Source: Planctomycetota bacterium (lineage in GTDB: Bacteria > Planctomycetota > UBA11346). From it: a DNA stretch of 64,000 nt. Under the pieces are notes generated by a model. The model did no database searches. It was given only the letters and a program-made list of their open reading frames with translations, and was not told the DNA's origin. The position numbers were made by a program, and so were the translations under genes. Each line of letters opens with the position of its first letter. Within the stretch, counting starts at the first letter, position 1. Below, one piece after another: positions 31,036 through 52,240 of this stretch. The stretch is taken from NCBI GenBank assembly GCA_017302815.1, contig JAFLCQ010000004.1:492-64491 (forward strand). The letters are read 5' to 3'.

Positions 31036-31101
31036 GCCCTACGCTGCTGGTCGATGGCAGGCTTGTCCCAATGGGCTAGGTACCACGCTGCGCTGATCCC
31101 C

Positions 31102-31869: not shown

Positions 31870-32007
31870 CTGCCAGATCGGACCCGGTCTGCGTGCCACC
31901 TCCGCACTCTCCTCAGCCGCCCCTGTGGCTGTCCTGGCCTCGAAGTGACAGCGTGAAGGACGACGGGGCAACGGGCCAACGGGACTTTCCTGTCCAGGTC
32001 GCACACC

Positions 32008-33093
32008 ATGATGCCGGACATGGCTGAGATTCCGCTAGTCGCGCACATCAACGAACTCATCGCTGAGGGCGTTCGCATCCGACGTGCTGGGATTCCGCGC
32101 GTGAGCCCAGCGCCGACCACGTCATGGGACTATGGCTACGCGGGCGAGCGGGAGCCCGAGCCGCATCGCTACGTCGAGTTCGATGCCGTTGCGTTGAAGC
32201 AATGGAGGAATGACATCAAGATGGTAGCTGCGGCAGCGATGCCTTCAGGCCACCATGTCATCGCCGATGCGCTCAGACTGGATGACCTCTATCACGATGA
32301 ACGTTTATTGGACGACGGAACAGCGCTACTACAGTCCTTGAAGCGCACAATCGAGCGTGGTCTGCTTGCTCCGACGCCGACTTCAGGAAGCGACACGCGA
32401 GCTGGAACCGTCGTGTACGATGACGGACTCCTGCGTCGTGTCCTCGTCGACGTCTATGACCGAGAGGGTGATGCGCCGCTGATGAACTACACCGTCTCGG
32501 GTGTCAACAGGGTCACCCTGATGCGCGCCATCCGCCGGCTGATGGATTTGGGATGGCTCGAAGCGGTGGATTGCAGTACCCGCGGCGGCATGGACTACGC
32601 GCCTCGGCGCGTCACCGCGGCAGGTTTAGATTGGCTCCAGGGGTCGCAGGCTCGGCCGTCAGGTTCCCAGGTGGTCAACCACTACCACGCTCCGGTTGCG
32701 CAGGGACAGCACGCGACCGTCGCCACGGTACACAACTCGCCTGGTGCGACTGTCACCGCCGCCTCCGGGGCTGCGACCGTCGAGCAGCGCATCCGCGTCC
32801 GCATCGAGCAGGTATCACAAGGTGACCGTGTCGTGGCCGCTGCCATCCAGCAAGTGGCTGACGCCATCGCCGCCAGTGCAGCGCTTGCTGATGGCCAGCG
32901 GGCTGAAGCCCAGGAGTTGCTGTTGGCCATTGCTGAGGAGTGCGCGAAGCCGCCTGCCGAACGCCAATCGGCAGCTCGCAGCAAAGGTCTCGCTGCTGGT
33001 ATGCGCGAGGCGCTCGGTCTTACAGCTGATGTTCTCCAGGTTTGGACGACGTGCTGGCCGAGCATTGCGCCAGTGCTTGGGATCATCGGATAG
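32008..33093 (+). CDS. Hypothetical protein (361 aa)
   Basis: ORF with a possible winged-helix segment (VTLMRAIRRLMDLGWLEAV). No family recognised. Confidence 0.4.
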   Translation: MMPDMAEIPLVAHINELIAEGVRIRRAGIPRVSPAPTTSWDYGYAGEREPEPHRYVEFDAVALKQWRNDIKMVAAAAMPSGHHVIADALRLDDLYHDERLLDDGTALLQSLKRTIERGLLAPTPTSGSDTRAGTVVYDDGLLRRVLVDVYDREGDAPLMNYTVSGVNRVTLMRAIRRLMDLGWLEAVDCSTRGGMDYAPRRVTAAGLDWLQGSQARPSGSQVVNHYHAPVAQGQHATVATVHNSPGATVTAASGAATVEQRIRVRIEQVSQGDRVVAAAIQQVADAIAASAALADGQRAEAQELLLAIAEECAKPPAERQSAARSKGLAAGMREALGLTADVLQVWTTCWPSIAPVLGIIG

Positions 33094-33170
33094 CCATCTG
33101 CTGTGGCTCGAACTACGCGCTCTCTTGGTCGATGCGTCGTTGCCCTAACGACCGTGCTGTCGCCGGCACG

Positions 33171-33890
33171 CTAATCCTTGTAGATCGGGGCCAGATCCTG
33201 CGGTAGATCCCGCGACGCGGGCCAGGACCGATCCACCTTCCGGGTCGTGGTCGGCAACTCGACAGGGGTCACGGTCGCTGTGAGCGACAAGGACAAGGAC
33301 GTTTCTCCGCGAGCGGAGATCGTCCCATCGTCCGCGATGGACTTGGGCACCTCGTAGAGCTTCACCGTCACTGCATCACCAGCAGCGAAGGCGGTTGCCT
33401 GCACAGTGACCGGGATCGTGATGCTCTCTCCCGGCGCGAGCGGTTGCTCCTTGGGGACGCTCGGTTGCACCGTGGCGGTGATCTCCGGCCGAGAGGCGGC
33501 TGCCCGCACGACGATCCCACCGAGCGGGAATGCGCGCGAGGATGTGTTCGTCACCACGATTGGGCACACCAGCGCCTCGACCGGGGTGAGCGTCGTGGCG
33601 TAGGTGACGAGGAAACTACCCTGCTTGGTTCGACCATCGCCGGATGTCAGGAGTCCGAGCTTGCTGGCCGGTCCAGCTCGTACCGCTTTCGTTGATACGA
33701 CATCCTCAGTTGTCGCGCCCGGCGACGTCACCGACACGATGCCCGGAACCGTTGGCTCTGCCGGCGCCGCTACCGTAGCTGCATAGGAGCGCTTGTCCGC
33801 CTGCTGGGCAGGCGGGTCGACGGGGGCTTGCCGATCCATGTCGCAGCCGGCGAGGCAGAGGATGACAATGGTCGCGGTAGCGATGCGCAC
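33171..33890 (-). CDS. Lipoprotein, beta-sandwich-like
   Basis: GTG at 33890 gives (M)RIATATIVILCLAGCD with lipobox LAGC. Thr/Val-rich strands follow. Confidence 0.5.
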   Translation of the reverse strand: MRIATATIVILCLAGCDMDRQAPVDPPAQQADKRSYAATVAAPAEPTVPGIVSVTSPGATTEDVVSTKAVRAGPASKLGLLTSGDGRTKQGSFLVTYATTLTPVEALVCPIVVTNTSSRAFPLGGIVVRAAASRPEITATVQPSVPKEQPLAPGESITIPVTVQATAFAAGDAVTVKLYEVPKSIADDGTISARGETSLSLSLTATVTPVELPTTTRKVDRSWPASRDLPQDLAPIYKD

Positions 33891-33984
33891 GGGTCGGATC
33901 TCCAAGAGCGCTGTAGCCTCGGTGGAGTCGCGGTCGAGGTCAACCGTCGAGTGGTGGCTGTGATGGGCGGGGCGCCAACCCCGA

Positions 33985-34332
33985 TCACCGCCGGCGTCGA
34001 CCGGGTGCAACGGGGCGCAGGCTGTCGAAGTCCAGGCCCGATACTATGGTATACGGCACCGTGCAGGACTGATGCTGCGGCCACTGCGCCGCGATGAACG
34101 CCTCCGCTGCCAGCCACTGCTGCGCGCGGAACGCTCGGTTCAGGCTGGCCCGCCGTCCAGTCCGCATCCGCATCTCGTCGCGTACGAGGTCCATGTCGAT
34201 GAAGTCGCGGTTACCCGACGGCATCGATACAGGGGTGGAGATGCTGCTGTAGGGCGTGAGATCGTCCCCGGTTCTCGCGATGTGGTCGCGGAGGACCTGC
34301 TCGGCAACTTCCAAGGACACCCGTCGCTGCAT
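33985..34332 (-). CDS. Hypothetical protein
   Basis: Internal ATG at 34332 (MQRRVSLEVAEQVLRDHIAR...). Weak. Confidence 0.3.
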   Translation of the reverse strand: MQRRVSLEVAEQVLRDHIARTGDDLTPYSSISTPVSMPSGNRDFIDMDLVRDEMRMRTGRRASLNRAFRAQQWLAAEAFIAAQWPQHQSCTVPYTIVSGLDFDSLRPVAPGRRRR

Positions 34333-34446
34333 GGAGCGGCAGCATCGAAGCGATGACGGGCTCGGCAAGGCGATGCCGAATGCTGGATCGCGATCCGGCA
34401 CCGGCACCGACCGGGTTGATCCAACAACCTGCCGTATGGGTGATCT

Positions 34447-36108
34447 ATGGCGTCCCCGACGGTGGACGTAGTGTTGATCACCATGGATCCGGCGGCACTG
34501 ATCGAGAAGAATACCCGGCGCAACCGCGTTCGTCGTGGGCGTCGTGGAGACGGCATCCTGGTCGGTATCGGGGATGCAGACCCGAACATCGATTATGCCT
34601 GTCCGGTGTGCGGCGACGCGCTACGCCAGAAACGGAGCTGTCTCGACAAGCCGTTCTTCGCGCACATCGGCGGCGATGGAACCTGCGCCGACGATGCCGT
34701 GCGCCATGCGGCAGCGGTGCGGGTGCTCGGGGATCTGGTTCACCATGCCGTGGCCGGCCGCCTGACGCTGCGGTTCGCGGGGCGGTGCATGGCCGGCCGA
34801 CATGGGGTCGACCAATGCCTCGACGTCCGCTCCGGCGACGTCATCCGCCGCGATGAGCACGGTCTGGCCATCTACCGCGATGGGGCGGCCATGGCCGTCC
34901 TGGTTGTCCATCAGGCGCATGAGCAGGCGGTCCATGCCGATGCGTTAGCGCGCTACGCCGTCGACGCGGATGAGGTCTTGGGGTGGGATGCCGATGCGGC
35001 CCTGGAAGCCTGTGGAAACGGTGGGAATGCGACGCTGGTCCTGGTCGCGACGTTGATGAGCGGCGGGGTGTCGTGCCCGACGTGCGCCAGGGAACGTGAG
35101 GCCGAGCAGCGGAAGGCCGACAAGGCCGCCGCCACCGAGGCCAGGGAACGGACGGAGCGGTGCCAAGCGTTCGCTGATGCCCTGATGCGCAGCGGGGGAC
35201 TGTTCGAGACAGGTTTCTGCGCCGCGCATCCGGATGTCCGCCGGACGATCGACATCAGCGGGCGCTACGATGGCATGGAGGTCGACGCCGTGCTCGATGG
35301 CGAGCGCTGGGACGTTGCCCTGACCCGAAAGAGACGGCTGGCGCTGGGGATTCTCCTGGTGCGGCCAGACGGCATGACCAATCCGGGCGACCTGGGCCAC
35401 CGGTGCCGCGATCCTGGGAACGCGCATTTCGTCGCCGTTCCGGAGGATGCCGAGGTCCAACCGGCGACCGGCGCATGGCCCACGAACACCTGGCACTTAC
35501 GGTCGGAGGGACGATGCCCACGCTGCGACGACCTGCCGCGGCTGGTTAAGCAGATCGACGCCGAGGAGGCCGCGTTCGCCACCCGCTTCGAGGTCGGCAA
35601 GCGCGAGATCCGGCCAGCCGACATCCGGACCGGGTTCAGGGCCGTGGTCGACGAGCGGCTACCCTGGTATCCGGCGGTGATCGAGACCGATGTGGACGCG
35701 GCCACGGCGGCGGCTGTAGAGCGGTTGCTGGCCGCGGCGGCCCGGGTGTGGCCGCCGTCGACGGCGGAGGCCAGACGTGCCTTGGAAACCAAGGCCCTGA
35801 CAGGCGATGTGAATCGGATGTGCGCCGGCTATGCCCGGAAGCATCTGGTGGTCGGCATGCCACCGAAGTCCGCGGCCGAGATTCACAGGGCGATCCACTA
35901 TCTTCTGGATCGTGGTGATGGCATGTCTCGGGCGGATCAGGCTGCCATCGAAGTCCATATCGCCAGCAGTATCGAGAGACTGGTCAAGATGGCGTGGGCG
36001 CTCTGGTCTGGTCATGAGAACCGAGCCAAGGCAGGACGCCAGATGCGGCAGGACGAGCAGGACATGGGACTGCGGCGCCGGTGGGGGCGGAGGAGGTCCG
36101 GCTGGTAA
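34447..36108 (+). CDS. CoiA-like zinc-ribbon/nuclease-like protein (553 aa)
   Basis: YACPVCGDALRQKRSCLDKPFFAHIGGDGTC resembles the CoiA N-terminal CxxC...FAH...C signature. Further CxxC pairs: CPTCARE and CPRCDD. Confidence 0.45.
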   Translation: MASPTVDVVLITMDPAALIEKNTRRNRVRRGRRGDGILVGIGDADPNIDYACPVCGDALRQKRSCLDKPFFAHIGGDGTCADDAVRHAAAVRVLGDLVHHAVAGRLTLRFAGRCMAGRHGVDQCLDVRSGDVIRRDEHGLAIYRDGAAMAVLVVHQAHEQAVHADALARYAVDADEVLGWDADAALEACGNGGNATLVLVATLMSGGVSCPTCAREREAEQRKADKAAATEARERTERCQAFADALMRSGGLFETGFCAAHPDVRRTIDISGRYDGMEVDAVLDGERWDVALTRKRRLALGILLVRPDGMTNPGDLGHRCRDPGNAHFVAVPEDAEVQPATGAWPTNTWHLRSEGRCPRCDDLPRLVKQIDAEEAAFATRFEVGKREIRPADIRTGFRAVVDERLPWYPAVIETDVDAATAAAVERLLAAAARVWPPSTAEARRALETKALTGDVNRMCAGYARKHLVVGMPPKSAAEIHRAIHYLLDRGDGMSRADQAAIEVHIASSIERLVKMAWALWSGHENRAKAGRQMRQDEQDMGLRRRWGRRRSGW

Positions 36109-36210
36109 CCGCTGCCCTTGGCCTATCGCAGGACGGGGCCGCCGCTGGATGCAGCGCCGGGTGCGCGTAGGACTGCCTCCGGCCGGCAGGATGCCGCCAC
36201 GAGGACCGCC

Positions 36211-37188
36211 ATGCCCACACCCCAACTCGGCCGTTTGCGGCGCATCGACGACCTGCGAAAGTATTGGGAGCGCGAAGACACGGATTTCACGCCGTGGCTC
36301 GCCAAGCCCGAGAATATCAAGCTCATCAGCGAGGCGACCGATCTGGATCTGGAAGTCGTGGCCGAGGAGAAGGATGTCGGCCCGTTCCGTGCTGACATCC
36401 TCTGCCGCGACACCCTCAGCGGTCATTGGGTCGTGGTGGAGAACCAGTTGGAGTGGACAGACCACACGCACCTCGGGCAGATCGTCACGTACGCCGCCGG
36501 TCTCGATGCGCGGGCCGTGGTGTGGATTTCATCCCGAATCACCCCCGAGCATCGGGCCGCGATCGACTGGCTGAACTCCATCGCATCAGCCAAGGTCGGG
36601 TTCTTCGCCCTCGAACTGGAACTGTGGGCCATCGAGGGGTACGACAAACCGGCTCCTCATTTCACGGTCGTGGCCAGGCCGAACGATTGGCAGCGCGCTG
36701 TGGCCGAGGCCGGCGAAGCCGCCGAACGCAGCGATCTGTCCGACCTCCGGAAGTCGTATGTGGAATACTGGACGGCATTCGCGGCGCTCTGCATGCAGCG
36801 CAAGACGCCGTTCAACATGCGGAAGCCCGGACCCTACCACAACACCGATGCATCCATCGGTCGGAGCGGGTTCACGATCTCGCCCCAGCTCTACCCTGAG
36901 TCGAAGTCCATCTGCGTGTCTCTGACCGTGCGCGGTGATCCACAGGGGACCGTGTTCAAGGCGATCATGGACCAACGATCCATGATCGAGCGCGACCTCG
37001 GTATGACGCTCGAATGGGATCAGAAGCCGGGCCGGGCGCAGAACTACATCACCTGCGCCAAGGACGTGACGGACGTCCTCGACAGGTCCGGATGGTCGTC
37101 CCAGCAGGCATGGATGGCCGACACCATGACCGCGTTCCATCGCGTATTCCAACCGATCGTGCGCGGCCTCGACATCGGTGACCAGTGA
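36211..37188 (+). CDS. DUF4268-family protein with N-terminal PD-(D/E)XK-like domain
   Basis: ATG at 36211. DLRKYWEREDTDFTPWLAKPENIKLISEATDLDLEVVAEEKDVGPFRADILCRD...VVVENQLEWTDHTHLGQIVTYAAGLDA...WISSRITPEHRAAIDWLN is the characteristic N-terminal block of DUF4268 proteins often embedded in type I R-M loci. Confidence 0.7.
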   Translation: MPTPQLGRLRRIDDLRKYWEREDTDFTPWLAKPENIKLISEATDLDLEVVAEEKDVGPFRADILCRDTLSGHWVVVENQLEWTDHTHLGQIVTYAAGLDARAVVWISSRITPEHRAAIDWLNSIASAKVGFFALELELWAIEGYDKPAPHFTVVARPNDWQRAVAEAGEAAERSDLSDLRKSYVEYWTAFAALCMQRKTPFNMRKPGPYHNTDASIGRSGFTISPQLYPESKSICVSLTVRGDPQGTVFKAIMDQRSMIERDLGMTLEWDQKPGRAQNYITCAKDVTDVLDRSGWSSQQAWMADTMTAFHRVFQPIVRGLDIGDQ

Positions 37189-37481
37189 TGGCCGGCGCCC
37201 GCAAGCCGTCCACGGCCGAAGAGACGGCGGCCAATCGCCACAACGGCTCTGCCCAGGTGAAAGCTACGCTAGGGCCAGCGAAGTCCCTGGAGCCCTACCA
37301 AGCCGCAGCCAAGGCCCCAAATTTCTCGTTCTTCATCTGGTCGGTGGCCAATCTACTGCGCGGCGATTACAAGCAGTCTGATTTCAGCAAGGTCATCCTA
37401 CCATTCACGTCACTGCGTTGCTTCATTTGCGCGTTAAAATCCACAAAGCAGCTGGAGGGAACCAATGATTCCGACTATTGA
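37188..37481 (+). pseudogene. hsdM: Truncated N-terminal stub of a type I R-M methyltransferase (hsdM-like)
   Basis: FSFFIWSVANLLRGDYKQSDFSKVILPFTSLR matches the HsdM N-terminal domain motif. Similarity stops near 37425, exactly where base composition switches to AT-richer DNA. The reading frame then ends after unrelated residues. No methyltransferase domain anywhere downstream. Confidence 0.6.
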
Positions 37482-40400
37482 TTTCAGCAAAGTTCGGGCG
37501 ATCGATGGAGATCAGCAGAAAGGGTTCGAGGAATTAGTCTGCCAGTTATTTAATGATCCGCAGCGTCCAACCGCTATTCGCAGGATTGAAGGAAGCGGAG
37601 GTGATGGTGGAGTTGAGTTGATTGAGATCGATGCCAAGGGAACTGCGATTTCCGGATGGCAGGCGAAATGCTTCTTCAAGGTCGATAACGCGCAATGGAT
37701 GCAGATTTACAAGTCTATTATCACGGTACTGAAGGTGCATCCCAGCCTGACCTCGTACACTATCTGTCTTCCAATCGACCTTACCGGGGCAAAAAATGGC
37801 AAAAAAGGAAGAAGAATCAAAGGCCAGTGGGGAAAGTGGCAGGAGGTTCTTAGAAAAATCACGAAGGGAAAGCCAAGGGGGATCGTTCGCTTGCTGACAA
37901 GAAAAGACCTTGTCAGTTCCCTTCTGGAAAAGGACGGCCAGATCCCTGGATTCATCAGTTATTGGTTCGGTGAAGGTGTCCTTGATCAAAAATGGTGGTC
38001 CTCCCACAGAGATCGAACCCGCGCAGCGTTCCATTGGAGTTATGATCCATCGTTGTCGGTCTGGACGCCGCTTCGGGCCGCCTTAGACGCCTGGGCGGAG
38101 ACGGCCACTTGGCGAAAAAGCGTCGTCTCTCTTTCCTCCAGTCTTCAAAACGCCATCAATTCAACGTGTGCACTGCTCGTTTCAACCGACAGCAAGGTCA
38201 TACGGGCGATTACAGACCTGAAATCTCTCGGAAACAGAATTGAACAGATGGTCAGTCGACAGAGTTCAGGAGACAGTCCCTCTGCGTATGTCGATCTATG
38301 TTCAGAAATTGTTGAAGTGATTGAATATGCCAGAGACTTTGGTGATGATTACAAAGTAAGGTGCTACAATCAGTGTCTTGAGCGGTGCACTACGATCGCA
38401 TCAGCATTTATGGAGAAAAACCCCCATGCCGTGCATATATCGTCCAACAAGAAGTTGTTGATTATCTCCGGTGGTTCAGGTACGGGGAAGAGTCACCATG
38501 TGGCTGCCTTCGCGGATGCAGAGTGCGTCGCTTCACAAACAGGGGTTGGTGCAACGGTCGTGCTGACTGCGTCCAAGGGCAACGAGAGACGCAGTCTTGA
38601 TCTTCTGAACGGAGTTTGCGATGGCTGTTCTTGGAGTCAGGATCTTGATGGTCTGCTCACGGCCCTGTCGTGTGAAGCCGCTTTGAGAGGTGGATACGCC
38701 GTTCTCATGATCGATGCGCTCAACGAAGCGGCTTATTGGCGAGAATGGCCGGAAGCGCTCGCTCTTCTGTTGGCGAGGATCAAGATTACCCCTCGTGTCC
38801 GTATCGTCATTACGCTTCGTCCAGAATATCAAGACGCCATATGCAAGACAATCGCACAAGATCCAGCAGTGGCCCGTGTCTTCCACCGAGGCTTTCGGGG
38901 ACAAGCCGATCGCGCCATCGACGCCTACATGGATCACTACCGCATCTCCCGGCCAGCGACCGTGGCGCTCCGAGAGTTAGCCGATCATCCACTTTTCCTC
39001 AAGTTGTTCTGTATGGCCTTCGCAGGCCGCTCCATAGCAGCTAGTGATGTATGCAATTCCCTCTTTGGGATCGTCGGACTCATCGATCTCTGGATCGAAT
39101 GGCTTGAAGAACGGCTCGCGGAGAAATGTGACGTCGATAAGAAAGCGAAAATTGCACGACGTTCCATTGAGGCTCTCGCTTCGTTGATGATGCGACAGGG
39201 CAGGGAGCATGTGGAGCGGGACCTAGTCTCGACCGAGTTGCAGCGTCTGCATCCTACAACCACACATCAGAAAAGTCTGCTAGCCTTCCTTTTGGGGGAA
39301 TGCGTGATTGAGGAGTACCTCGCTCTGATTGGGTCGCAGGAAGTCGATTGCATCCGCTTTTCGTTTCAACGACTCACAGAACTGACTATTTCGCGGATCC
39401 TGGTCGGTAACTGGACCAAGGCTGGTGATTGTGTCTCGGATACAACACTGCCGCATCTCCTGGACGGCAATCGCGCGGAGGGGGGCAATCGACTGTCGCT
39501 TCCTGGATGTCTGGACATCCTCACTCTGCTTTTTTCCGAGAAATTCTCTACTGAGATATTTGAGGTGATGCCGCAGATTGGGTGCCCAGCCACGCAGATG
39601 GACTGGTATGTAGGTCCACCGATCACAGCGATGGATGCCGCTTTGGCGGCGGGGATAACGAGCCGGTCACATCGGTCACTGACCGCTGCATTCAGAACAT
39701 GGCTCGACTCACGATTGAAAGACGGTGATCTGCTGGTGTGGAATGAAGTCATCCGCAGCGCATGTTACGAGAAGCACCCACTAAGTGCGACGACCTGGCT
39801 TCATCCCCACCTGCATGTCATGCCGGTTTTGAAGCGTGATGCGTATTGGTCGGTTCCACTTGGAAATCTGTACGATCCGGTTCGGAAAGACAGGTACTCA
39901 CATCGACCAGTAGGCATGTATGATCCTCGGGTTGGGCATTCGGTCGTCAAAGAACTCCTGGGATGGATCGAGGGACTTAGCCCAACCACCCTTCAAAGCA
40001 TCAATACTGGTGCTATCGGAGAGGTGGCGCTGGTCTTGTGCTGGTTCTTCACCTCAAGTCATCGTTTCCTGCGGGACCGGTCCTCAATGGCCCTCGCTAA
40101 GGTCCTGCTGCATCACCCCGGGTTGTTTGCCGATGTGACCCGGCTCTCATCCACCTGCAATGATGTTTACGTCATTGAGCGGGTGCTCGCAGCGCTGTAT
40201 GGCGCCATGCTGCGCAACGCTGCTCTCCGGCACGATGACATCCTGTCCTGGATCCAAGCCAACCATGCCTCAAGAACGTGGTCGAGTGATGTGGTCATAC
40301 GTGACTACTGCCTGTCGATTGAAGCCTTCTGTCGCTTGCGAAGTGGTCTTCCGCCCGGATCAACCCTCTCCTTCCCGAAGCTACCAAGCATCGATTTTAA

Positions 40401-41982
40401 AAAGCTGAAGAGCCGCAAGCATCTCGATGCGAAGGTCAGAAAATTTGAAAAGACAACTGCGCAACGGACAAGCATCGAAGAGATCAACCGCTCCCTTACC
40501 TGCCAAGCTGGTGACTTCACCAACTACTGCCTCGGTGACACGGACAAATTCACACAGCATCTACGCACGAAGGCTCCTCCTGCCATACGGCCTAAACTCA
40601 CCGAGCTGTCGAACGAAGCTCTTGCGGTGCTGAAAAATATGCTCTCAGAAACAAGATTAAAGAGCATTACCAGAAGCAAAAAGTTAGATGCGTTTCAGGA
40701 GGCATTGGATTATCTCCATGCGAAGAACGGGGTATTGAAGGACGCCCTGATGGTATCGTCCGATATCGTCCAGAGGTGGATGATGACCGATATCATGCGT
40801 CAATATACCGAAGCCGGACCGGTTATTTCAAAAATCGATGTCTACGATGCGACCTGGAACTCAGGAGGGCGAGAGAGCCATAAGGCAGAACGCTTGGGGA
40901 AGAAGTATCAGTGGATCTCGCTTAGATCGCTCCTGTCTCGACTCTGCGACAACTACTGGCAAAGAAATGGATATGGAAGCCGGGCCACGTGGGAGGTGGC
41001 GCCGCCTCCGTACGAATTCGGCATGCGGGAAATTGATTGCAGCCTCTCCCATGAAGCGGTTCATCCGCAGACTGATAGCGAAGGTGGGGAGTCCTCGTCA
41101 CTCGGTTTCTGGTGGTCGGGGATGACGTTTGACGAGTCCATCCTGCAGGGAACCGCGTTAGCGGATGAATGGCGACGCAATGCTGGTTGCTGCTTGGTCA
41201 AACGGTGGACTCCCGTGCGGCAGGAGTCCAGGCACACGCCTCCACAGGTTGTGCTGTCGCAACATGGGAATTCAAATGGGGAATTGATTGGAGATAACGG
41301 TGTCGCCTTGAAGCGGATGGAATTTGCCATCGCCTCGTTCCTAGTGAAGGAAGCCAATGTTTCCGATGTCCTCGAAACTCTGGGTTCGTGTAGCTTCATG
41401 AATCGCGACCTTTTCCGATGGTATCAGCAGATGCCTCAATGGATTGGTGAATGGCCATGGCATCCTGCTCTGGCTGAGAACGATGAGTCCGCCCGCATAA
41501 CGAAAAACCGTGCCACCAGAGATCAGGGTATTCTCTGTATTCCCACGACCTATGACCTTCTCCATGAGCCTGGATATGACTGCTCTCTTTCGGAGAGTTT
41601 TTCTGTCGATCTTCCCTGCCAAAGTCTGATCCGTGACGGTTCGCTCACGTGGAGTGGATATCCCGGCGAGTACGTGCATGACGACCTGGTTGTTATCTCG
41701 GACCCCGCACTACGCAATGGAGCCGGACCTCGCGGATTGGTGATGCACGAAGAGTTCCTGCGAGGTTACTTGATAAAGAATCGACAGTCTCTAATCACTA
41801 TCGGTATTGCCGAGTGGTGGTATGGAACCGAGGAGGCCGGACGAAATGTGGCTTGGGGAGTGACCTGCCTTGCCAATGCGATGATGGCCAATGGAAGAAA
41901 AGTCGGATATGCCCAACAATGGGCATTGCTAACTAACGGAGGCCGCGAAGAACTTGTAAAACGAATTGCTTGGAATCGGTAA
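37465..41982 (+). CDS. Avs-like antiviral STAND NTPase with N-terminal Mrr-like PD-(D/E)XK nuclease (1505 aa)
   Basis: RBS GGAGGG 7 nt before the ATG. N-terminus GSGGDGGVELIEID...GWQAKCF resembles the Mrr_cat D-E-QxK core. Walker A GGSGTGKS at 38470-38493; Walker B VLMIDALNEA from 38701. About 1000-aa C-terminal region without recognisable repeats. Markedly lower G+C than its flanks. Confidence 0.65.
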   Translation: MIPTIDFSKVRAIDGDQQKGFEELVCQLFNDPQRPTAIRRIEGSGGDGGVELIEIDAKGTAISGWQAKCFFKVDNAQWMQIYKSIITVLKVHPSLTSYTICLPIDLTGAKNGKKGRRIKGQWGKWQEVLRKITKGKPRGIVRLLTRKDLVSSLLEKDGQIPGFISYWFGEGVLDQKWWSSHRDRTRAAFHWSYDPSLSVWTPLRAALDAWAETATWRKSVVSLSSSLQNAINSTCALLVSTDSKVIRAITDLKSLGNRIEQMVSRQSSGDSPSAYVDLCSEIVEVIEYARDFGDDYKVRCYNQCLERCTTIASAFMEKNPHAVHISSNKKLLIISGGSGTGKSHHVAAFADAECVASQTGVGATVVLTASKGNERRSLDLLNGVCDGCSWSQDLDGLLTALSCEAALRGGYAVLMIDALNEAAYWREWPEALALLLARIKITPRVRIVITLRPEYQDAICKTIAQDPAVARVFHRGFRGQADRAIDAYMDHYRISRPATVALRELADHPLFLKLFCMAFAGRSIAASDVCNSLFGIVGLIDLWIEWLEERLAEKCDVDKKAKIARRSIEALASLMMRQGREHVERDLVSTELQRLHPTTTHQKSLLAFLLGECVIEEYLALIGSQEVDCIRFSFQRLTELTISRILVGNWTKAGDCVSDTTLPHLLDGNRAEGGNRLSLPGCLDILTLLFSEKFSTEIFEVMPQIGCPATQMDWYVGPPITAMDAALAAGITSRSHRSLTAAFRTWLDSRLKDGDLLVWNEVIRSACYEKHPLSATTWLHPHLHVMPVLKRDAYWSVPLGNLYDPVRKDRYSHRPVGMYDPRVGHSVVKELLGWIEGLSPTTLQSINTGAIGEVALVLCWFFTSSHRFLRDRSSMALAKVLLHHPGLFADVTRLSSTCNDVYVIERVLAALYGAMLRNAALRHDDILSWIQANHASRTWSSDVVIRDYCLSIEAFCRLRSGLPPGSTLSFPKLPSIDFKKLKSRKHLDAKVRKFEKTTAQRTSIEEINRSLTCQAGDFTNYCLGDTDKFTQHLRTKAPPAIRPKLTELSNEALAVLKNMLSETRLKSITRSKKLDAFQEALDYLHAKNGVLKDALMVSSDIVQRWMMTDIMRQYTEAGPVISKIDVYDATWNSGGRESHKAERLGKKYQWISLRSLLSRLCDNYWQRNGYGSRATWEVAPPPYEFGMREIDCSLSHEAVHPQTDSEGGESSSLGFWWSGMTFDESILQGTALADEWRRNAGCCLVKRWTPVRQESRHTPPQVVLSQHGNSNGELIGDNGVALKRMEFAIASFLVKEANVSDVLETLGSCSFMNRDLFRWYQQMPQWIGEWPWHPALAENDESARITKNRATRDQGILCIPTTYDLLHEPGYDCSLSESFSVDLPCQSLIRDGSLTWSGYPGEYVHDDLVVISDPALRNGAGPRGLVMHEEFLRGYLIKNRQSLITIGIAEWWYGTEEAGRNVAWGVTCLANAMMANGRKVGYAQQWALLTNGGREELVKRIAWNR

Positions 41983-42441
41983 CCCGTTGATCAGTCATGT
42001 GAAAATCTATTCGTTTTCCAAAATTAACGTGCACCACCGGTCAAGACTGGCGCGGCTGGCCATCTAACATATCCGGAGAGGCGTCAGATCAGATGATGGG
42101 ATCTGTGTAGATGGTTACCCATTCCGGCGCAGGCGTTGCGGTGGGCGGCGGCCAGGGAGCCATTGAACAGCCAATAGCCTACGTCTTTGCCGAACGCGAT
42201 CTCCTCGTCAGCTCAGGCCTTTGCCTGGGCCGGTCCTAGGCAGCAGCAAACCGACCGTTTTGGACGACTAGGATGCAGATGCGGCGATCCTGGTCGCGGA
42301 TAAGCTAGGAAGCGCAGGCGGGGTCCGCGGTCATGCGTGAGCGCGAAAGAAGAACCAGCCTTGCTCTCGCTGCTGAGAATCGGTTGATGGACACAGGATT
42401 AGGAACGAGGAGATTATTCTTGTGCGATATACACGGGTGGC

Positions 42442-43326
42442 CTACGAAGCCGGAAATCTATCGTTGAAAACCATGTCCCAATACCGGTGCGCTGTCTCCT
42501 GGTCGCGGCTGAGTTCAGCCGCGAGCGCACGTTCGGCCTTGTCCAAGGCGGTCGCGGCATGTTCGGTCGCCAACCTGGCCTTTGGCCCTGAATCGGCCGC
42601 CTGAACGCGGCCGGAGACGCCCATCGGATCGTTAATCGCGCGGCATCCCCGATGTCGCAGGGTTCTGAACGCGGCAATGAGGCACTCCTGATAACTTTTG
42701 ACCCCGGAAAACGTCCGTTCGCTGGCAAAAAGAATCTCCATGTGGAAGGATGAGATGGGGGTGCGCGGACGGCGGCAATCGCGCCAAAATTTCAAGATTT
42801 GGATGCAGGCCGCGAACTTGTGCCCGCTGCTGGCGTGGGCTTCCTCGATGAGGACGCCGTGCGCCTCTGGTGATGTAGGCATCCAATCCCCTGCCGCCGA
42901 CGGGATTAGGAAGAGAGGCCGATTCACGCCCTTGGCGGGATGCATGCCTTGGAAAATTGCCGGCACCACGTCAACGTCCCCGTCATCGAAACGGCAAACG
43001 ACGGCTTGGCCGTCCCGATTGCTGTCGGTCTTCGGGAAGCGCGTTCCGAGGGCGCCCCGAACGCGATTCAGCATGGTTGTACCGGAAACGTACCCATTCC
43101 CCCAACGTGCCGATTCGCGGGTAAATACCGCAAGCAGGTCCATGTCGCTGATTCCGCGAACGGCGCTACCGCGGGAATAGCTCCCGATCCGGCGGACGCC
43201 CTTGATTCCGCGAGCGGACCTCAAGCAGGCGTCGATTTCCGCTGCATGGCGAGACTTCGCCGTGAGTTCAGCCGCGGTGGGTTGGATCCTCCGTATGAGG
43301 GATTGGAAGCGGTCGGCGATCGACAC
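42442..43326 (-). CDS. SMODS/CD-NTase-like nucleotidyltransferase, paralog C (last gene of operon)
   Basis: Pol-beta NTase signature RIGSYSRGSAVRGISDMDLL plus third carboxylate in DGDVDVVPA. C-terminal tail YWDMVFNDRFP is shared with the two paralogs. Confidence 0.65.
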   Translation of the reverse strand: MSIADRFQSLIRRIQPTAAELTAKSRHAAEIDACLRSARGIKGVRRIGSYSRGSAVRGISDMDLLAVFTRESARWGNGYVSGTTMLNRVRGALGTRFPKTDSNRDGQAVVCRFDDGDVDVVPAIFQGMHPAKGVNRPLFLIPSAAGDWMPTSPEAHGVLIEEAHASSGHKFAACIQILKFWRDCRRPRTPISSFHMEILFASERTFSGVKSYQECLIAAFRTLRHRGCRAINDPMGVSGRVQAADSGPKARLATEHAATALDKAERALAAELSRDQETAHRYWDMVFNDRFPAS

Positions 43327-43333
43327 GGGCTGG

Positions 43334-44335
43334 TCAACCGACTACCTTGGCCGCTTCGGCCACCATCTGCTCGACTGAAAAAGCCGCTCGGCGTTCCAAT
43401 TTGTTCCGCATCGCGTTGTACACCGAGTCGAAAACCAGCGGGCTGCTGCGCCGGTGCTCAAATATCTCGTCCTGGATCTGCCTCGAACGGGCCGCCAGCG
43501 TGGCCTCGTCGAGACCGGCGAGGGCCTCCGCCCAGACGCGCTCCAAGGCGTCCTTGATGCGTTGGGACCGGTCACCGGCGGCGCGGTTCTCCCTGAAATT
43601 CCTGATGCCCAACAAGAGCAGCGGGGCTGCCGGCGCAAGGCTCGCCAGGATGAGCGTCTTGGCGTCGAAGCCCTTCGTGACGGGAATGAGGACGATCGCG
43701 AGCGCCAGGATGATGGTGCAGGCGAGGACAGTGTTGGCGTACCTGCGCCGGATGCACATGTCGTATGCGCAGTTCTCCCGCTGGCAGACGATCCGCCCGA
43801 ACCGCTCCGGGATACGATCGACTGCGGGCGAATACCAGTTTTCCAGTCCCTGCTTCGACGGCGCGATCCCGAACCGGGCCAATACCCAGGACGCGCCCCT
43901 GATCGCAGCGGACACCGGTTTTCCAAGCACCGACCACACCGTTCGGCCCGGTACGTCCGGGGAGACGGCGGCGTACGCGTCGGCCAGTGAGACGACCGCC
44001 TCCGGATCGGGTCGACGCCCGATTTTAACCGGGTTCCACTCGATGCCCAGGACGTAGGCGTCGAAGGCCTCCTGAATCCTGGCCGAATCCTCGCGCATCT
44101 TCTGCAAGGCCGGGGCGATGAGCAGGAGATCGAGGACCGCGAACGCGAATCCCCAAATGGCCAGGTAGGGCTTGGGACTTGGGTCGAGCCAAAGCCAGAC
44201 GCTCCCAGCGAGAGCGACTGGGCCGGCGACGAACATCTGGAGACCGAACAGGCGCTTCGCCGCAGTGTAGCCGTGGCGCTGGGCGGAGAGCCAAGTGAGC
44301 GGGAGAGTCTCGTTCTGGCGGGATGCGATGGGCAT
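43334..44335 (-). CDS. Four-TM effector, S-4TM-like (SMODS-associated)
   Basis: TM pairs LFGLQMFVAGPVALAGSVWLWL / YLAIWGFAFAVLDLLLIAPAL and VLACTIILALAIVLIPV / LILASLAPAAPLLLLGI. Between them lies the soluble segment ARIQEAFDAYVLGIEWNP. Embedded between NTase genes with 3-nt and 7-nt gaps. Confidence 0.55.
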   Translation of the reverse strand: MPIASRQNETLPLTWLSAQRHGYTAAKRLFGLQMFVAGPVALAGSVWLWLDPSPKPYLAIWGFAFAVLDLLLIAPALQKMREDSARIQEAFDAYVLGIEWNPVKIGRRPDPEAVVSLADAYAAVSPDVPGRTVWSVLGKPVSAAIRGASWVLARFGIAPSKQGLENWYSPAVDRIPERFGRIVCQRENCAYDMCIRRRYANTVLACTIILALAIVLIPVTKGFDAKTLILASLAPAAPLLLLGIRNFRENRAAGDRSQRIKDALERVWAEALAGLDEATLAARSRQIQDEIFEHRRSSPLVFDSVYNAMRNKLERRAAFSVEQMVAEAAKVVG

Positions 44336-44338
44336 GAG

Positions 44339-45211
44339 CTAATAATAGTAAGTCGGGAACTCGTAGTTATAGACGAGACGCCACCAGTCGAACGCTTCCG
44401 AGACGTTGCTCGCCTCGGCGGCGGCCCGCGCCTTCTCGGCACGCCCCAAGGCGGTTCCCAGCTTGGACAGCGCATCCGTCCGTTGATCGGCGGTCTTGCA
44501 GGCCCGGATCAGCCCCGACACTCCCATCGGGTCCTGCATGTCGGCAAGGCCGACGTCAGACAGGAGCTTCAACACTCGTTTGACGTCCATATCGTAAATA
44601 ATCGCCTTCTCACCCTCGGCGTACTTGGCGACCCGTAGTTCCAGATAGAAGCTGGAGACGGGCACGTTGCAGAAATATTTCCAAGCCTTGATGAACCTGA
44701 CGAGGGGCTTGACCTTCCCGCCGAGTCGGCCGTCGACGTCCGCCACGTATGCGTTGTGAGCATCCGGGCTGGCGCGCATCCACCCGCCAGCGCAGTCCGC
44801 GATGTCGTAGACCTTGCGGTCGCGCTCGTCCCCGATGTAGTGGGCCGGGACTACTTCGGTCCGGTCTGCGGCCGTGCCTCCGAAGGGGACGCAGACCGCC
44901 GGGCAATCGACCCGGACGCCCGTGTTCGGGAACCTCGCGTCCAGCGCTTCTCGGATTTTTCGCAAGGAGTAGTCCGAATTGGACGACAGCTTGTCCCCAG
45001 GGATGCTCGCGAGGTAATCGACGTCACTGTAGCCGGAAATGCTCGTGCCGTTCCCGAACGAGCCGATTCGCGCGAACCTCCGGAGCCCGAAATTGTCTTT
45101 CAGGCACGCCTCGATGGAGGCCCGGTGTGAACTGGCCGCCGCCGACTCCGAATCGGTTGGCGTCAGGCGGGAGAGAAAATCGCGGAAACCCTCGTCGATA
45201 GTTCTTGGCAT
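44339..45211 (-). CDS. SMODS/CD-NTase-like nucleotidyltransferase, paralog B
   Basis: RIGSFGNGTSISGYSDVDYL. The third acidic position reads DRTEVVPA (Glu instead of Asp). C-terminal tail WWRLVYNYEFP. Confidence 0.65.
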   Translation of the reverse strand: MPRTIDEGFRDFLSRLTPTDSESAAASSHRASIEACLKDNFGLRRFARIGSFGNGTSISGYSDVDYLASIPGDKLSSNSDYSLRKIREALDARFPNTGVRVDCPAVCVPFGGTAADRTEVVPAHYIGDERDRKVYDIADCAGGWMRASPDAHNAYVADVDGRLGGKVKPLVRFIKAWKYFCNVPVSSFYLELRVAKYAEGEKAIIYDMDVKRVLKLLSDVGLADMQDPMGVSGLIRACKTADQRTDALSKLGTALGRAEKARAAAEASNVSEAFDWWRLVYNYEFPTYYY

Positions 45212-45220
45212 AGATGTGCG

Positions 45221-46078
45221 TTATCCGAAGGTCGGGAACGGGTCCCCGAACACGGCGCGCCATGATCGGACGGCGTCCGCTTCGTTCCCTTGACGACCGG
45301 CGTACCACGCGTCCCTCGCGCCGTCCCTGGCTTTCTCAAGGCGGTCGACTGCTTGGTCCCTGTCGGACTGGGACAAGTAGGAATCCGCGTACCCGAGCCG
45401 GTTCCACAGGCTCGACTTGGCGAGCGCCGACGCCTTGTCGAAGAACTGGAAGACGCTCCACGGCAGGTCGTCCAGGGACGAGGTGAGCGCCTTGAGCGCC
45501 ATGACCTCGATGTGGTAGGACTGGAGGTAGTCGCTGTGGCCCTTGTTCCAAGCCTTGGCCATCTTCACGATCTTGCGGAAGTTCCCGCCACAGGTCGACG
45601 CGGCGTGATCGATGTCGTCGCCGTGGTCCTTTGGGTTCGTCGAGATCCAGTTGCCCGACGAAGCGTCGGGAATGTCGTAGTGGGTCACGGCCCCGGCGCC
45701 GTTTATGCACTGGGCTGCGGGGACGATGTCGACGTTGGGCCACGAATCGTAATAGAGGGTGACGGCCTGGCCGTTCTTCCGGACGTTGGTCTTGTCTTCG
45801 CCGAGCGCGTCCCGCACGTCTTGGAGCAGGTCCTTCGGGCTCTTCCCCTTGATGTGCTTCCCGTAGTGGAGGGCGACCATGACGTCGACGTCCGCGTGCT
45901 TCTTGATCGCCGTGAACCTTGGGATGGAGCCGGAGGGGAACGCCTCCAGTACCTCGAACTTCTTCTTCATCAGGCCGACGATGTGGTCTTTGCGGGCGTT
46001 GGCGTCGCTGCGGCGGTCGCCGTCCAGGTTGATGGCGTCGAAGTAGGCTGAGAATGCGGAATCCACCGTGAGCGCCAT
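45221..46078 (-). CDS. SMODS/CD-NTase-like nucleotidyltransferase, paralog A (first gene of operon)
   Basis: PSGSIPRFTAIKKHADVDVMV, NVDIVPA, C-terminal tail SWRAVFGDPFP. Confidence 0.65.
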   Translation of the reverse strand: MALTVDSAFSAYFDAINLDGDRRSDANARKDHIVGLMKKKFEVLEAFPSGSIPRFTAIKKHADVDVMVALHYGKHIKGKSPKDLLQDVRDALGEDKTNVRKNGQAVTLYYDSWPNVDIVPAAQCINGAGAVTHYDIPDASSGNWISTNPKDHGDDIDHAASTCGGNFRKIVKMAKAWNKGHSDYLQSYHIEVMALKALTSSLDDLPWSVFQFFDKASALAKSSLWNRLGYADSYLSQSDRDQAVDRLEKARDGARDAWYAGRQGNEADAVRSWRAVFGDPFPTFG

Positions 46079-46157: not shown

Positions 46158-46517
46158 TTAACGACCGGCGGACGCCTTGATCTGGGCCCAGACGCGGCGC
46201 CAGGATTCCTGGGGCAGCTTGGCTAGTCTGCAGATCGCGTAGCACTCTAGCACTTGCGTCACCTCCTGTCCGCTGGGGTCAACGGCTTGCGTCGTAAATA
46301 CTGACATTGCAAAGGCTCGGACACCAACCCTGAGCCATTTTGCCATACTGTAGGTCGTGAGCATGGCGCATGGCAGGGGTGCAGCGGTTCTTGTCCGATA
46401 AGACCACGATGCGTCGCGACCGCGATCCCTCGCGCTCTGCACCATCTGGACCCACGAGGCGTTGGACTCGGCCTGTGGCGACGAGCCAGACATGAATGGA
46501 TGTGATCTCATGCTCAT
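46158..46517 (-). CDS. Doubtful ORF (119 aa) abutting the tauE stop
   Basis: Start codon directly follows the tauE stop. Lower G+C than its flanks. No family recognised; may be a remnant or non-coding. Confidence 0.2.
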   Translation of the reverse strand: MSMRSHPFMSGSSPQAESNASWVQMVQSARDRGRDASWSYRTRTAAPLPCAMLTTYSMAKWLRVGVRAFAMSVFTTQAVDPSGQEVTQVLECYAICRLAKLPQESWRRVWAQIKASAGR

Positions 46518-52119: not shown

Positions 52120-52240
52120 TGCAGGTCCTTTCCTCGGCCTGCGGTGTGCAGGCGTCATGGGAGACCGGCCCGTTTCCAGGCTGGCCCCGTCTCCAGCACC
52201 ATGGCCCGGATGGGCGGTAGGCGCTGGAGATCGGATTCAA
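52120..52240 (-). promoter_or_regulatory. Candidate Moco (molybdenum cofactor) riboswitch in moaA leader
   Basis: The minus-strand leader contains, in order, AUCUCCAGCGCC ... GCUGGAGA (8-bp stem), CUGGAAAC, GGUCUCCC, hairpin GCCUGC-ACACC-GCAGGC, and GAGGAAAGGAC just before the AUG. These resemble the conserved CUCCGAGCC / GCCUCCC / GGAAAGG blocks of the Moco RNA motif as I remember it. Confidence 0.5.

What the first reader, a model, noticed from the sequence alone, without database searches (positions are those of the whole stretch)
37465..41982. AT-richer single-gene cassette: 1505-aa STAND NTPase with Mrr-like nuclease head (Avs-like), dropped into a decayed R-M locus
Seen in sequence:
- Base composition changes abruptly near 37425 and again near 42035. 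Inside, A/T-rich codons and runs such as GGCAAAAAATGGCAAAAAAGGAAGAAGAATCAAAGG occur that are absent from the flanks.
- The ORF has a strong RBS.
- N-terminus GGDGGVELIEID...WQAK is a PD-(D/E)XK core of the Mrr_cat type.
- Walker A GGSGTGKS is at aa 336-343 and Walker B MIDALNEA near aa 415.
- About 1000 aa of non-repetitive C-terminal sequence follow.

Established knowledge: nuclease head + STAND NTPase + large sensor is the architecture of Avs (antiviral STAND) proteins. Avs4-type members use an Mrr-like nuclease.

Inference:
- The gene was recently acquired from a lower-GC donor.
- The C-terminal sensor has no repeat pattern I can recognise, so its specificity may differ from described Avs classes.
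- A weak 10-bp inverted repeat (TGCGCGTTAA at 37428-37437, TTAACGTGCA at 42024-42033, one mismatch) brackets the cassette. It could mark the insertion boundaries or be chance.
Basis: partly seen in the sequence, partly recalled or inferred. Interest (0 to 1): 0.7.

Follow-up and report, generated by a model that had tools for sequence, protein, structure and literature searches.

The report
Divergent Avs2 anti-phage sensor gene
This is an intact but divergent member of the known Avs2 family of bacterial anti-phage sensor proteins, with a DNA-cutting head, that arrived by horizontal transfer into a cluster of other defence genes, so it is an ordinary find with a few unusual details.

Summary
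The ORF (37465-41982, +, 1505 aa), the GC drop (0.527 against 0.664 for the rest of the window) and all quoted motifs are real. The protein is Avs2, not Avs4-like. It is collinear with a PADLOC Avs2 model over positions 2-1458 of 1504 (E 8e-185). It matches the solved EcAvs2 (PDB 9o4e), and its family's C-terminal profile covers EcAvs2 residues 1100-1482 (E 6e-89). The claim of a new sensor specificity is therefore unsupported. The head is a divergent Mrr-like PD-(D/E)xK nuclease. Catalytic and Walker residues are nearly invariant across 108 relatives. Likely mechanism, inferred by homology: binding of the phage large terminase, ATP-dependent tetramerisation, DNA degradation and abortive infection. 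The "decayed R-M locus" is only about 45 codons of the hsdM 5' end. The same stub-Avs2 junction lies in an unrelated contig (L002, 96% identical gene), so the stub most likely travelled with Avs2. No HsdS, HsdR or other HsdM remnant is in the 64 kb. The 10-bp inverted repeat is at chance level (13% of shuffles). The gene sits between PDC-S11 and a three-cyclase CBASS, at the far end of a probable tRNA-Leu integrative island. Apart from one near-identical copy, relatives are at most about 30% identical. Verdict: new member of a known kind, low to moderate interest.

The parts
37237..37451 (+). hsdM' stub: about 45 codons of the 5' end of a type I R-M methylase gene plus about 70 nt of its upstream region. 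It lies within ORF 37185..37481 and reads through into the Avs2 start.
   Evidence: Pfam HsdM_N E 7e-7. tblastn with two full HsdM proteins hits only 37320-37451 (HsdM aa 5-48, 70-71% identity). The homologous stub in L002 has the same junction. Stub-to-stub identity is 80%.
37453..37457 (+). Ribosome-binding site GGAGG, 7 nt before the ATG
   Evidence: Read directly from the sequence.
37465..41982 (+). avs2 gene, 1505 codons plus stop
   Evidence: PADLOC Avs2 PDLC02164, E 8e-185. PDB 9o4e EcAvs2, E 1.3e-27. omega 0.34 against the L002 copy.
37465..38064 (+). N-terminal Mrr-like PD-(D/E)xK nuclease effector, aa 1 to about 200. Candidate catalytic residues: D47, E51, Q66, K68.
   Evidence: D47, E51, Q66 and K68 are present in 106 of 108 relatives. 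The AF2 model (pLDDT 81.8) has an alpha-beta-beta-beta-alpha-beta core. Best Foldseek hit is EcAvs4 8dgf, prob 1.00, E 1e-2. The family profile hits EcAvs4 residues 5-117 at E 1.6e-5. Pfam Mrr_cat is not detected in this protein.
38065..38424 (+). Helical linker between effector and NTPase, aa 201-320
   Evidence: AF2 model helices 202-292. EcAvs2 has an equivalent helical extension that contributes to the terminase interface (PMC13601566).
38425..39531 (+). STAND NTPase module, aa about 321-689. Walker A is aa 336-343 (nt 38470-38493) and Walker B is aa 415-422 (nt 38707-38730). The C-terminal limit is approximate.
   Evidence: Weak Pfam NACHT, E 0.014. G336, G339, G341, K342 and D417 are invariant in 108 of 108 relatives. 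It aligns to the EcAvs2 ATPase from residue 332.
39532..40764 (+). TPR-like helical-repeat sensor domain, aa about 690-1100 (limits approximate)
   Evidence: AF2 model pLDDT 80.9, pTM 0.88, all-helical. Aligns to EcAvs2 up to residue 962. omega 0.86 for aa 651-1100 against the L002 copy.
40765..41979 (+). Beta-rich C-terminal sensor domain (CTD), aa 1101-1505
   Evidence: The family profile A6, which includes this protein, hits EcAvs2 residues 1100-1482 at E 6e-89. PADLOC Avs2 E 4e-44 for the last 463 aa. Beta-rich fold in the model. The equivalents of EcAvs2 R1132, E1362 and E1444 are kept as R1136, E1368 and E1450.
41983..42100 (+). Low-GC 3' tail of the imported segment. The GC step back to host values falls at about 42100.
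   Evidence: 100-nt GC bins are 0.47, 0.49, then 0.61. The right end cannot be confirmed from L002, whose copy breaks at window 41576.
36118..37188 (+). Context: PDC-S11 (DUF4268) candidate defence gene directly upstream
   Evidence: PADLOC E 8e-106. Pfam DUF4268.
42442..46078 (-). Context: CBASS operon with three cyclase paralogues and a 4TM effector, convergent with avs2

Best explanation
The gene encodes an intact, divergent member of the Avs2 (AVAST type 2) family of antiviral STAND NTPases. It is a single-protein pattern-recognition receptor. By homology with EcAvs2 and KpAvs2, the helical-repeat domain and the beta-rich C-terminal domain form a pocket that binds a conserved phage protein, most likely the ATPase domain of the large terminase. 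Binding would allow ATP-dependent tetramerisation through the STAND module. That would bring the four N-terminal Mrr-like nuclease heads together, and they would degrade DNA indiscriminately and abort the infection. Shown here: family membership, domain layout, intact catalytic residues, purifying selection, and foreign composition. Inferred: the ligand, oligomerisation and DNA cleavage. The gene reached this genome by horizontal transfer, most likely together with a short stub of an hsdM gene that now forms its 5' leader. It lies in a defence cluster (PDC-S11, Avs2, CBASS) at the far end of a probable tRNA-Leu integrative island.
For: Family: PADLOC Avs2 PDLC02164 E 8e-185, collinear over positions 2-1458 of 1504, with each third of the protein matching separately. 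NCBIfam Avs2 E 1e-111. EcAvs2 structure 9o4e E 1.3e-27. CTD family profile against EcAvs2 1100-1482, E 6e-89. The sensor model's best solved fold is terminase-bound SeAvs3 8dgc, prob 1.00, E 9.5e-4. Integrity: 1505 aa against a family norm of about 1400-1550. Walker A/B and D47, E51, Q66, K68 are near-invariant. omega is 0.34 overall and about 0.2 in the nuclease, NTPase and CTD. Nuclease head. K68 and K342 sit at positions similar to the K71 and K337 whose mutation abolishes KpAvs2 defence (PMC11564622); this rests on residue numbering, not on an alignment. Mechanism of relatives: PMC13601566, PMC11564622, 10.64898/2026.08.25.746987. Transfer: GC and GC3. A 96% identical copy lies in a contig with unrelated flanks. 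Relatives span many phyla. Solitary homologues sit in defence neighbourhoods. Context.
Against: The score is below NCBIfam's equivalog cutoff (374.6 against 1000 bits). Identity to any characterised Avs2 is only about 20-25%. Of the EcAvs2 contact residues examined, R1130, W1266, E1364 and E1462 are not conserved, T1128 aligns with N1132 or S1133 depending on the alignment, and D981 was not mapped. KpAvs2 is also triggered by non-terminase proteins and needs a partner, Avap2, for some phages. No partner gene is evident here. Pfam does not call Mrr_cat in this protein, and Foldseek E-values for the head are weak. No experiment was done, and the host is unknown.
Confidence: 0.78

Rival explanations
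1. One reading: an Avs4-like or unclassified Avs whose sensor has a new specificity, different from the described Avs classes.
For: The head's best solved match is EcAvs4. Identity to characterised Avs2 proteins is low. Several EcAvs2 contact residues are not kept. omega is 0.86 in the helical-repeat domain. KpAvs2 shows that Avs2 sensors can take on additional ligands (PMC11564622).
Against: No Avs4 model hit at E <= 1. The sensor matches Avs2 models to the last residues and matches the EcAvs2 CTD at E 6e-89 at profile level. The Avs2 sensor type is reported as clade-specific (PMC13581612). Effector heads are known to be swapped between Avs families.
Confidence: 0.1
2. Insertion in place: a resident type I R-M operon decayed at this spot and Avs2 landed in it here. 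The L002 copy would then descend from this locus.
For: An hsdM 5' fragment abuts the gene. Type I R-M operons commonly hold embedded genes, for example AbiEii and VapC genes inside the operons fetched. The direction of transfer between the two contigs cannot be determined.
Against: tblastn finds no HsdS, HsdR or further HsdM sequence in the 64 kb. The GC step lies at about 37300, so the stub's hsdM-coding part shares the low GC of Avs2. The same junction sits between unrelated flanks in L002.
Confidence: 0.12
3. A decaying relic: the gene is no longer functional and is kept only by recency of transfer.
For: Its only close relative (L002) is truncated by about 135 aa. The surroundings are a mosaic of fragments. 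No promoter-like site lies upstream (though this is an E. coli-type consensus).
Against: The ORF is full-length with every catalytic residue intact. omega is about 0.2 in three domains. It has a good RBS.
Confidence: 0.06

Closest known systems
KpAvs2 (Klebsiella pneumoniae Avs2; PMC11564622)
   Same: Same architecture: Mrr-family nuclease head, STAND NTPase, long Avs2-type C-terminal sensor. The mutated lysines are at similar positions (K71 and K337 there, K68 and K342 here; by numbering, not alignment). KpAvs2 degrades DNA non-specifically and works by abortive infection.
   Different: KpAvs2 sits in a three-gene operon with a radical-SAM protein and Avap2. Here the gene is solitary, as are five sampled homologues. 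Triggers here are unknown.
EcAvs2 (PDB 9o4e; PMC13601566)
   Same: The NTPase, helical-repeat and CTD sensor regions are homologous. The equivalents of R1132 (bridging ATP), E1362 and E1444 (terminase contacts) are retained. Both are single-gene systems.
   Different: EcAvs2 carries an uncharacterised non-nuclease effector. The equivalents of R1130, W1266, E1364 and E1462 are not conserved here. Identity is about 20-25%.
EcAvs4 (PDB 8dgf)
   Same: The N-terminal Mrr-like nuclease head is the closest solved relative of this head by both fold and profile.
   Different: The Avs4 sensor recognises the portal protein. No Avs4 model matches this protein.
SeAvs3 (PDB 8dgc)
   Same: It is the best solved fold for the sensor region in the Foldseek library. 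It shares the C-terminal sensor that binds the terminase ATPase (PMC13601566).
   Different: It has a Cap4-type nuclease head and a different TPR domain. TM-scores are low (0.28).

Membership tests
Avs2 (AVAST type 2) | Tripartite layout: N-terminal effector, central STAND NTPase, then TPR-like domain plus beta-rich CTD sensor | tested here: met
   Segment-wise PADLOC matches. AF2 models of aa 1-320 and 651-1505. The layout matches the VcAvs2 and EcAvs2 descriptions (10.64898/2026.08.25.746987; PMC13601566).
Avs2 (AVAST type 2) | Full-length match to curated Avs2 profiles | tested here: met
   PADLOC PDLC02164 E 8e-185, positions 2-1458 of 1504. Five further Avs2 models score E 1e-101 to 2e-68.
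Avs2 (AVAST type 2) | Score above NCBIfam NF041813 equivalog cutoff (1000 bits) | tested here: not met
   374.6 bits, matching aa 302-1043 only. That model represents a subgroup with a different head, so this protein lies outside that narrow equivalog.
Avs2 (AVAST type 2) | Avs2-type C-terminal sensor homologous to the solved EcAvs2 CTD | tested here: met
   Family CTD profile against 9o4e residues 1100-1482, E 6e-89. Direct phmmer reaches residues 1119-1287. The last 260 aa alone give no pairwise hit.
Avs2 (AVAST type 2) | [quoted passage not shown] | tested here: met
   GGSGTGKS 336-343 and D417 in MIDALNEA. Both are invariant in 108 of 108 relatives.
Avs2 (AVAST type 2) | EcAvs2 terminase and bridging-ATP contact residues conserved | tested here: inconclusive
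   R1132, E1362 and E1444 are kept (R1136, E1368, E1450). T1128 aligns with N1132 or S1133, depending on the alignment. R1130, W1266, E1364 and E1462 are not kept. D981 was not mapped. In EcAvs2 single mutants are tolerated (PMC13601566).
Avs2 (AVAST type 2) | Activated by the phage large terminase, tetramerises, and protects by abortive infection | not testable with these tools
   Needs co-expression toxicity assays, plaque assays, and size-exclusion chromatography or cryo-EM.
Avs4 | Avs4-type (portal-sensing) sensor and NTPase matching Avs4 profiles | tested here: not met
   No Avs4 model at E <= 1 in PADLOC or NCBIfam. Only the head (aa 5-120) resembles EcAvs4.
Mrr-like PD-(D/E)xK nuclease | Match to Pfam Mrr_cat or Mrr_cat_2 | tested here: not met
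   No hit in aa 1-200 at E <= 1. Among 24 family heads, 2 hit Mrr_cat_2 (best 0.0066) and 2 hit Mrr_cat (best 0.015). One homologue carries a precomputed PF04471 hit.
Mrr-like PD-(D/E)xK nuclease | alpha-beta-beta-beta-alpha-beta core with D...E...QxK catalytic residues | tested here: met
   Model elements H17-28, E37-40, E52-55, E61-67, H75-91, E97-101. D47, E51, Q66 and K68 are present in 106 of 108 relatives.
Mrr-like PD-(D/E)xK nuclease | Similarity to a solved Mrr-type nuclease | tested here: met
   Profile against EcAvs4 residues 5-117, E 1.6e-5; LlaBIII at a non-significant E of 0.18. Foldseek: 8dgf prob 1.00 at E 1e-2, then EcoO109I and YaeQ. No hit reaches E <= 1e-3.
Type I R-M locus (resident, decayed) | Remnants of hsdM body, hsdS or hsdR around the insertion | tested here: not met
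   tblastn with HsdM (two sources), HsdS and HsdR finds only HsdM aa 5-48 at 37320-37451.
Transposon-like cassette with terminal inverted repeats | Significant terminal inverted repeats or target duplications at the composition borders | tested here: not met
   The 10-bp repeat is at chance level (13% of shuffles) and is not conserved in L002.

The most novel reading that the evidence does not exclude
The hsdM stub may be more than debris. It could be a portable leader. Avs2 would have captured the promoter and first ~45 codons of a type I R-M operon. This stretch of hsdM is 73-87% identical at the DNA level among unrelated bacteria. It could therefore act as a homology anchor that lets the stub-Avs2 unit recombine into resident type I R-M operons and replace them. 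This would be a homologous-recombination route for exchanging defence genes. The mosaic identity pattern and the near-neutral omega (0.86) in the helical-repeat domain would then reflect ongoing recombination and sensor diversification.
Probability: 0.1. Interest if true: 0.55.

Novelty: new member of a known kind. Interest (0 to 1): 0.25.

Why it matters
It adds a deep-branching, apparently intact Avs2 with a nuclease head from an unsampled high-GC lineage. That is useful as a diversity point for testing how far terminase recognition extends within the family. It also gives a clean example of defence-gene turnover: one gene, foreign in composition, found in two unrelated neighbourhoods with the same R-M stub attached. 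It does not change what is known about Avs proteins.

Tried and rejected
(1) Inverted repeat as a cassette boundary: chance level and not conserved.

(2) Pfam Mrr_cat on the head: no hit in this protein and only weak hits in the family.

(3) Pairwise search of the last 260 aa against PDB sequences: nothing. A family profile was needed.

(4) EcAvs2 as a fold match: 9o4e is absent from the Foldseek library (cut-off April 2026), so only SeAvs3 appears.

(5) Empty site and host identity through the neighbouring core gene TauE: the best relatives are 68% and 57% identical Myxococcota MAGs with no synteny.

(6) Donor lineage: no phage hit, best plasmid hit 23.6% identity, and DNA-level hits only to the hsdM stub.

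(7) attR for the tRNA-Leu island: no repeat of the tRNA 3' end.

(8) The conserved 100-nt segment at 46328-46434 as an RNA or a repeated element: no Rfam family, folds no better than shuffles, and metagenome matches limited to the seed.

(9) Sigma-70 promoter and intrinsic terminator scans: counts equal to shuffles, nothing upstream of the gene.

(10) A general link between this family and type I R-M: none of five sampled homologue contexts has hsdM.

(11) Stub identity as proof of common descent: rejected, because the stub region is equally similar to unrelated hsdM genes. The argument rests on the shared junction instead.
Full report
OBSERVATION. The ORF is real: 37465..41982 on the + strand, ATG start, 1505 aa. 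GGAGG lies 7 nt upstream of the ATG. The N-terminus agrees with the family consensus MxxxIDFxxIR. The compositional anomaly is also real. The gene has GC 0.527 and GC3 0.57. The rest of the window has GC 0.664, and neighbouring genes have GC3 0.68-0.89. The two 2-kb bins inside the gene are the lowest of all 32. The left step lies within the upstream hsdM fragment. All quoted motifs are at the stated residues. The 10-bp inverted repeat exists but is unremarkable. It is not among the 25 longest of 62 inverted pairs in the region. 13% of shuffles produce an equivalent pair. Its left arm differs at two positions in the second copy of the element.

WHAT IT IS. PADLOC places the whole protein in Avs2. 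The best model, PDLC02164, scores E 8e-185 and is collinear over positions 2-1458 of 1504. When the protein is split, each part matches separately: head E 1e-44, NTPase E 3e-54, last 463 aa E 4e-44. NCBIfam's Avs2 model also matches (E 1e-111), but only over aa 302-1043 and below its equivalog cutoff of 1000 bits. No Avs1, Avs3, Avs4 or Avs5 model appears in either library. Pfam sees only a weak NACHT signal. Among solved structures the single significant sequence match is EcAvs2, PDB 9o4e (E 1.3e-27).

A search of 5.8 billion proteins returned 119 relatives. Of these, 116, 119, 113 and 106 share the head, the NTPase, the helical-repeat domain and the C-terminal domain respectively. This is one coherent full-length family. 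Except for one 95% identical partial copy, all relatives are 19-38% identical in local BLASTP alignments and 21-32% over the head. The protein is therefore a deep branch.

DOMAINS. Head: D47, E51, Q66 and K68 are present in 106 of 108 aligned relatives. An AlphaFold model of aa 1-320 (pLDDT 81.8) has the alpha-beta-beta-beta-alpha-beta core of PD-(D/E)xK nucleases, followed by a helical linker. Its best structural match is the EcAvs4 chain 8dgf (prob 1.00, E 1e-2), then EcoO109I and YaeQ. No hit reaches E 1e-3. A profile of 24 family heads matches EcAvs4 residues 5-117 at E 1.6e-5, aligning FE...G(V/I)E...GWQ(A/S)K; the type ISP enzyme LlaBIII follows at a non-significant E of 0.18. Pfam Mrr_cat is not detected in this protein, and only weakly in 2 of 24 relatives. 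The head is therefore Mrr-like but divergent.

NTPase: the Walker A residues G336, G339, G341 and K342, and the Walker B residue D417, are invariant in all 108 relatives.

Sensor: the model of aa 651-1505 (pLDDT 80.9, pTM 0.88) is a helical-repeat array followed by a beta-rich domain. That is the layout described for EcAvs2 and VcAvs2 (PMC13601566; 10.64898/2026.08.25.746987). Its best solved fold is terminase-bound SeAvs3 (8dgc, prob 1.00, E 9.5e-4). EcAvs2 is not in that Foldseek library. A profile of the family's last ~400 residues covers EcAvs2 1100-1482 at E 6e-89. Of the EcAvs2 residues that contact the terminase or the bridging ATP, R1132, E1362 and E1444 are retained here (R1136, E1368, E1450). 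T1128 aligns with N1132 or S1133, depending on the alignment. R1130, W1266, E1364 and E1462 are not conserved.

HOW IT MOST LIKELY WORKS. This is inferred by homology with EcAvs2, KpAvs2 and VcAvs2. The sensor binds a conserved phage protein, most probably the ATPase domain of the large terminase. The ATP-bound STAND modules tetramerise. The clustered Mrr-like heads become active and degrade DNA. The infected cell dies before phage are released. K68 and K342 sit at positions similar to the KpAvs2 residues K71 and K337, whose mutation abolishes defence (PMC11564622); this correspondence rests on numbering, not on an alignment.

Comparison with the 95% identical copy shows purifying selection: omega 0.34 overall, 0.21 in the nuclease, 0.19 in the NTPase and 0.20 in the CTD. 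The helical-repeat domain is an exception at omega 0.86. Counts there are small, and the other copy is truncated, so this is only a hint of sensor diversification.

GENOMIC SETTING. Directly upstream lies ORF 37185..37481, which matches Pfam HsdM_N. tblastn with full HsdM, HsdS and HsdR proteins from two plasmid operons finds only HsdM residues 5-48, at 37320-37451. No other R-M sequence is detectable in the 64 kb.

The only close relative of the gene lies on another public contig, L002. Homology between L002 and the window runs from 37306 to 41576 at 95.8% identity, with weaker similarity back to about 37237. Both flanks are unrelated. L002 carries the same hsdM stub joined to the same RBS and ATG. 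The junction therefore predates the split of the two copies. Given the absence of other R-M debris here, the stub most likely came in with Avs2 rather than being a local relic.

Two caveats apply. First, the stubs are only 80% identical to each other, and the L002 stub is equally similar to unrelated hsdM genes. The case for common descent therefore rests on the shared junction, not on identity. The stub's divergence is statistically compatible with dS at the 5' end of Avs2. Second, the direction of transfer between the two contigs cannot be determined. L002's copy ends at window position 41576 and lacks the last ~135 aa, so it cannot define the right boundary.

Neighbours are defence genes. 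PDC-S11/DUF4268 is upstream (E 8e-106). Downstream is a convergent CBASS with a 4TM effector and three cyclase paralogues. Further left lie a tRNA-Leu gene, a tyrosine integrase, and DUF3987, DUF932 and MCM-like genes. To the right, a Moco-riboswitch-controlled operon ends at 46518. The defence cluster thus appears to occupy the distal end of a ~40-kb integrative island, although no attR was found.

Five sampled homologues are solitary genes next to other defence systems: an MmeI-type R-M, UvrD/PD-(D/E)xK, Wadjet and another NACHT giant. None is beside hsdM.

The host is unsampled. The nearest TauE relatives are Myxococcota MAGs at 68% and 57% identity, without synteny. No empty site and no donor lineage could be identified, and nothing close exists on plasmids or phages.

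COMPARISON AND VERDICT. It works like Avs2, and it is a member of the Avs2 family as defined by PADLOC models and by homology to the solved EcAvs2. It lies outside NCBIfam's narrow equivalog. Its head is of the type seen on KpAvs2 and EcAvs4, and swapping of heads between Avs families is already known. The Avs4 analogy, the suggestion of a new sensor class, the insertion-in-place scenario and the inverted repeat are not supported. Novelty: a new, divergent member of a known kind. Interest is low to moderate. The only thread with wider potential is whether the conserved hsdM stub serves as a promoter or as a homology anchor for moving the gene between type I R-M loci. I rate that at about 10%.

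Noticed in passing
window 42442-46078 (- strand): A CBASS operon with three CD-NTase (SMODS) paralogues (45224-46078, 44342-45211, 42445-43326) and one S_4TM effector (43337-44335). The paralogues are only 25-33% identical to the first of them. All keep the catalytic G48, S49, D61, D63 and D119, so none looks like a dead copy. Three cyclases for one effector looks unusual.
   Followed up: partly
window 46328-46434; L002 9080-9174: A ~100-nt segment at the island-chromosome junction is 78.5% identical to a segment 166 nt past the truncated Avs2 of L002. It matches no Rfam family, shows no significant fold, and has no other copy in metagenomes. It may be an island terminus, or the far edge of a deletion that removed CBASS from L002. 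It remains unexplained.
   Followed up: yes
window 37465-41576 vs L002 4796-8910: Identity between the two Avs2 copies is mosaic: 98-100% in 38485-40084 and 0.87-0.95 toward both ends. dS is about 0.04 in the centre and 0.13-0.15 at the ends. This suggests recombination within the gene. omega is 0.86 in the helical-repeat domain and about 0.2 in the nuclease, NTPase and CTD.
   Followed up: partly
window 5580-12375 and 27286-29232: tRNA-Leu(gag) at 5580-5666 is followed by a tyrosine integrase (5875-7110, -), DUF3987 (7419-8861), DUF932 (10189-12375) and later an MCM-like P-loop protein. This looks like an integrative island of about 40 kb whose far end holds the defence genes. No attR repeat was found.
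   Followed up: partly
window 36118-37188: A PDC-S11 (DUF4268) candidate defence gene (PADLOC E 8e-106) ends where the hsdM-stub ORF begins.
   Followed up: partly
window 52109-52248 (- strand): A Moco (molybdenum cofactor) riboswitch scores 45.9 bits against a gathering score of 36. It heads the minus-strand Moco operon (MoCF_biosynth, MobB, TauE) that ends at 46518 and marks core chromosome.
   Followed up: no
L002 4434-4545 and 951-4360: In L002 the stub ORF begins MKLARLRIFNFQSFG..., which resembles the N-terminus of an ABC/OLD-type ATPase, fused in frame to the hsdM stub. Upstream are CTD9- and MC5-domain proteins and a 682-aa coiled-coil ATPase-like protein in a low-GC (0.41-0.50) block. 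This is another mosaic of conflict-system fragments.
   Followed up: no
window 30820-36108: Several sizeable genes between the MCM-like gene and PDC-S11 have no significant family match in Pfam or PADLOC: 361 aa at 32008-33093, 279 aa at 33171-34010 (-), and 553 aa at 34447-36108. A 349-aa protein at 30820-31869 has a Clp_N domain. Given the neighbourhood, these are possible uncharacterised defence genes.
   Followed up: partly
window 19946-19997, 29530-29560, 56210-56274: Self-BLAST shows three palindromic stretches of 31-65 nt at 80-97% identity. They were not examined.
   Followed up: no
window 30619-30711: A weak tblastn match to the C-terminal 31 aa of an HsdS protein (45% identity, E 0.004 against the window only). 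It is probably noise, but it is the only other R-M-like signal in the window.
   Followed up: no
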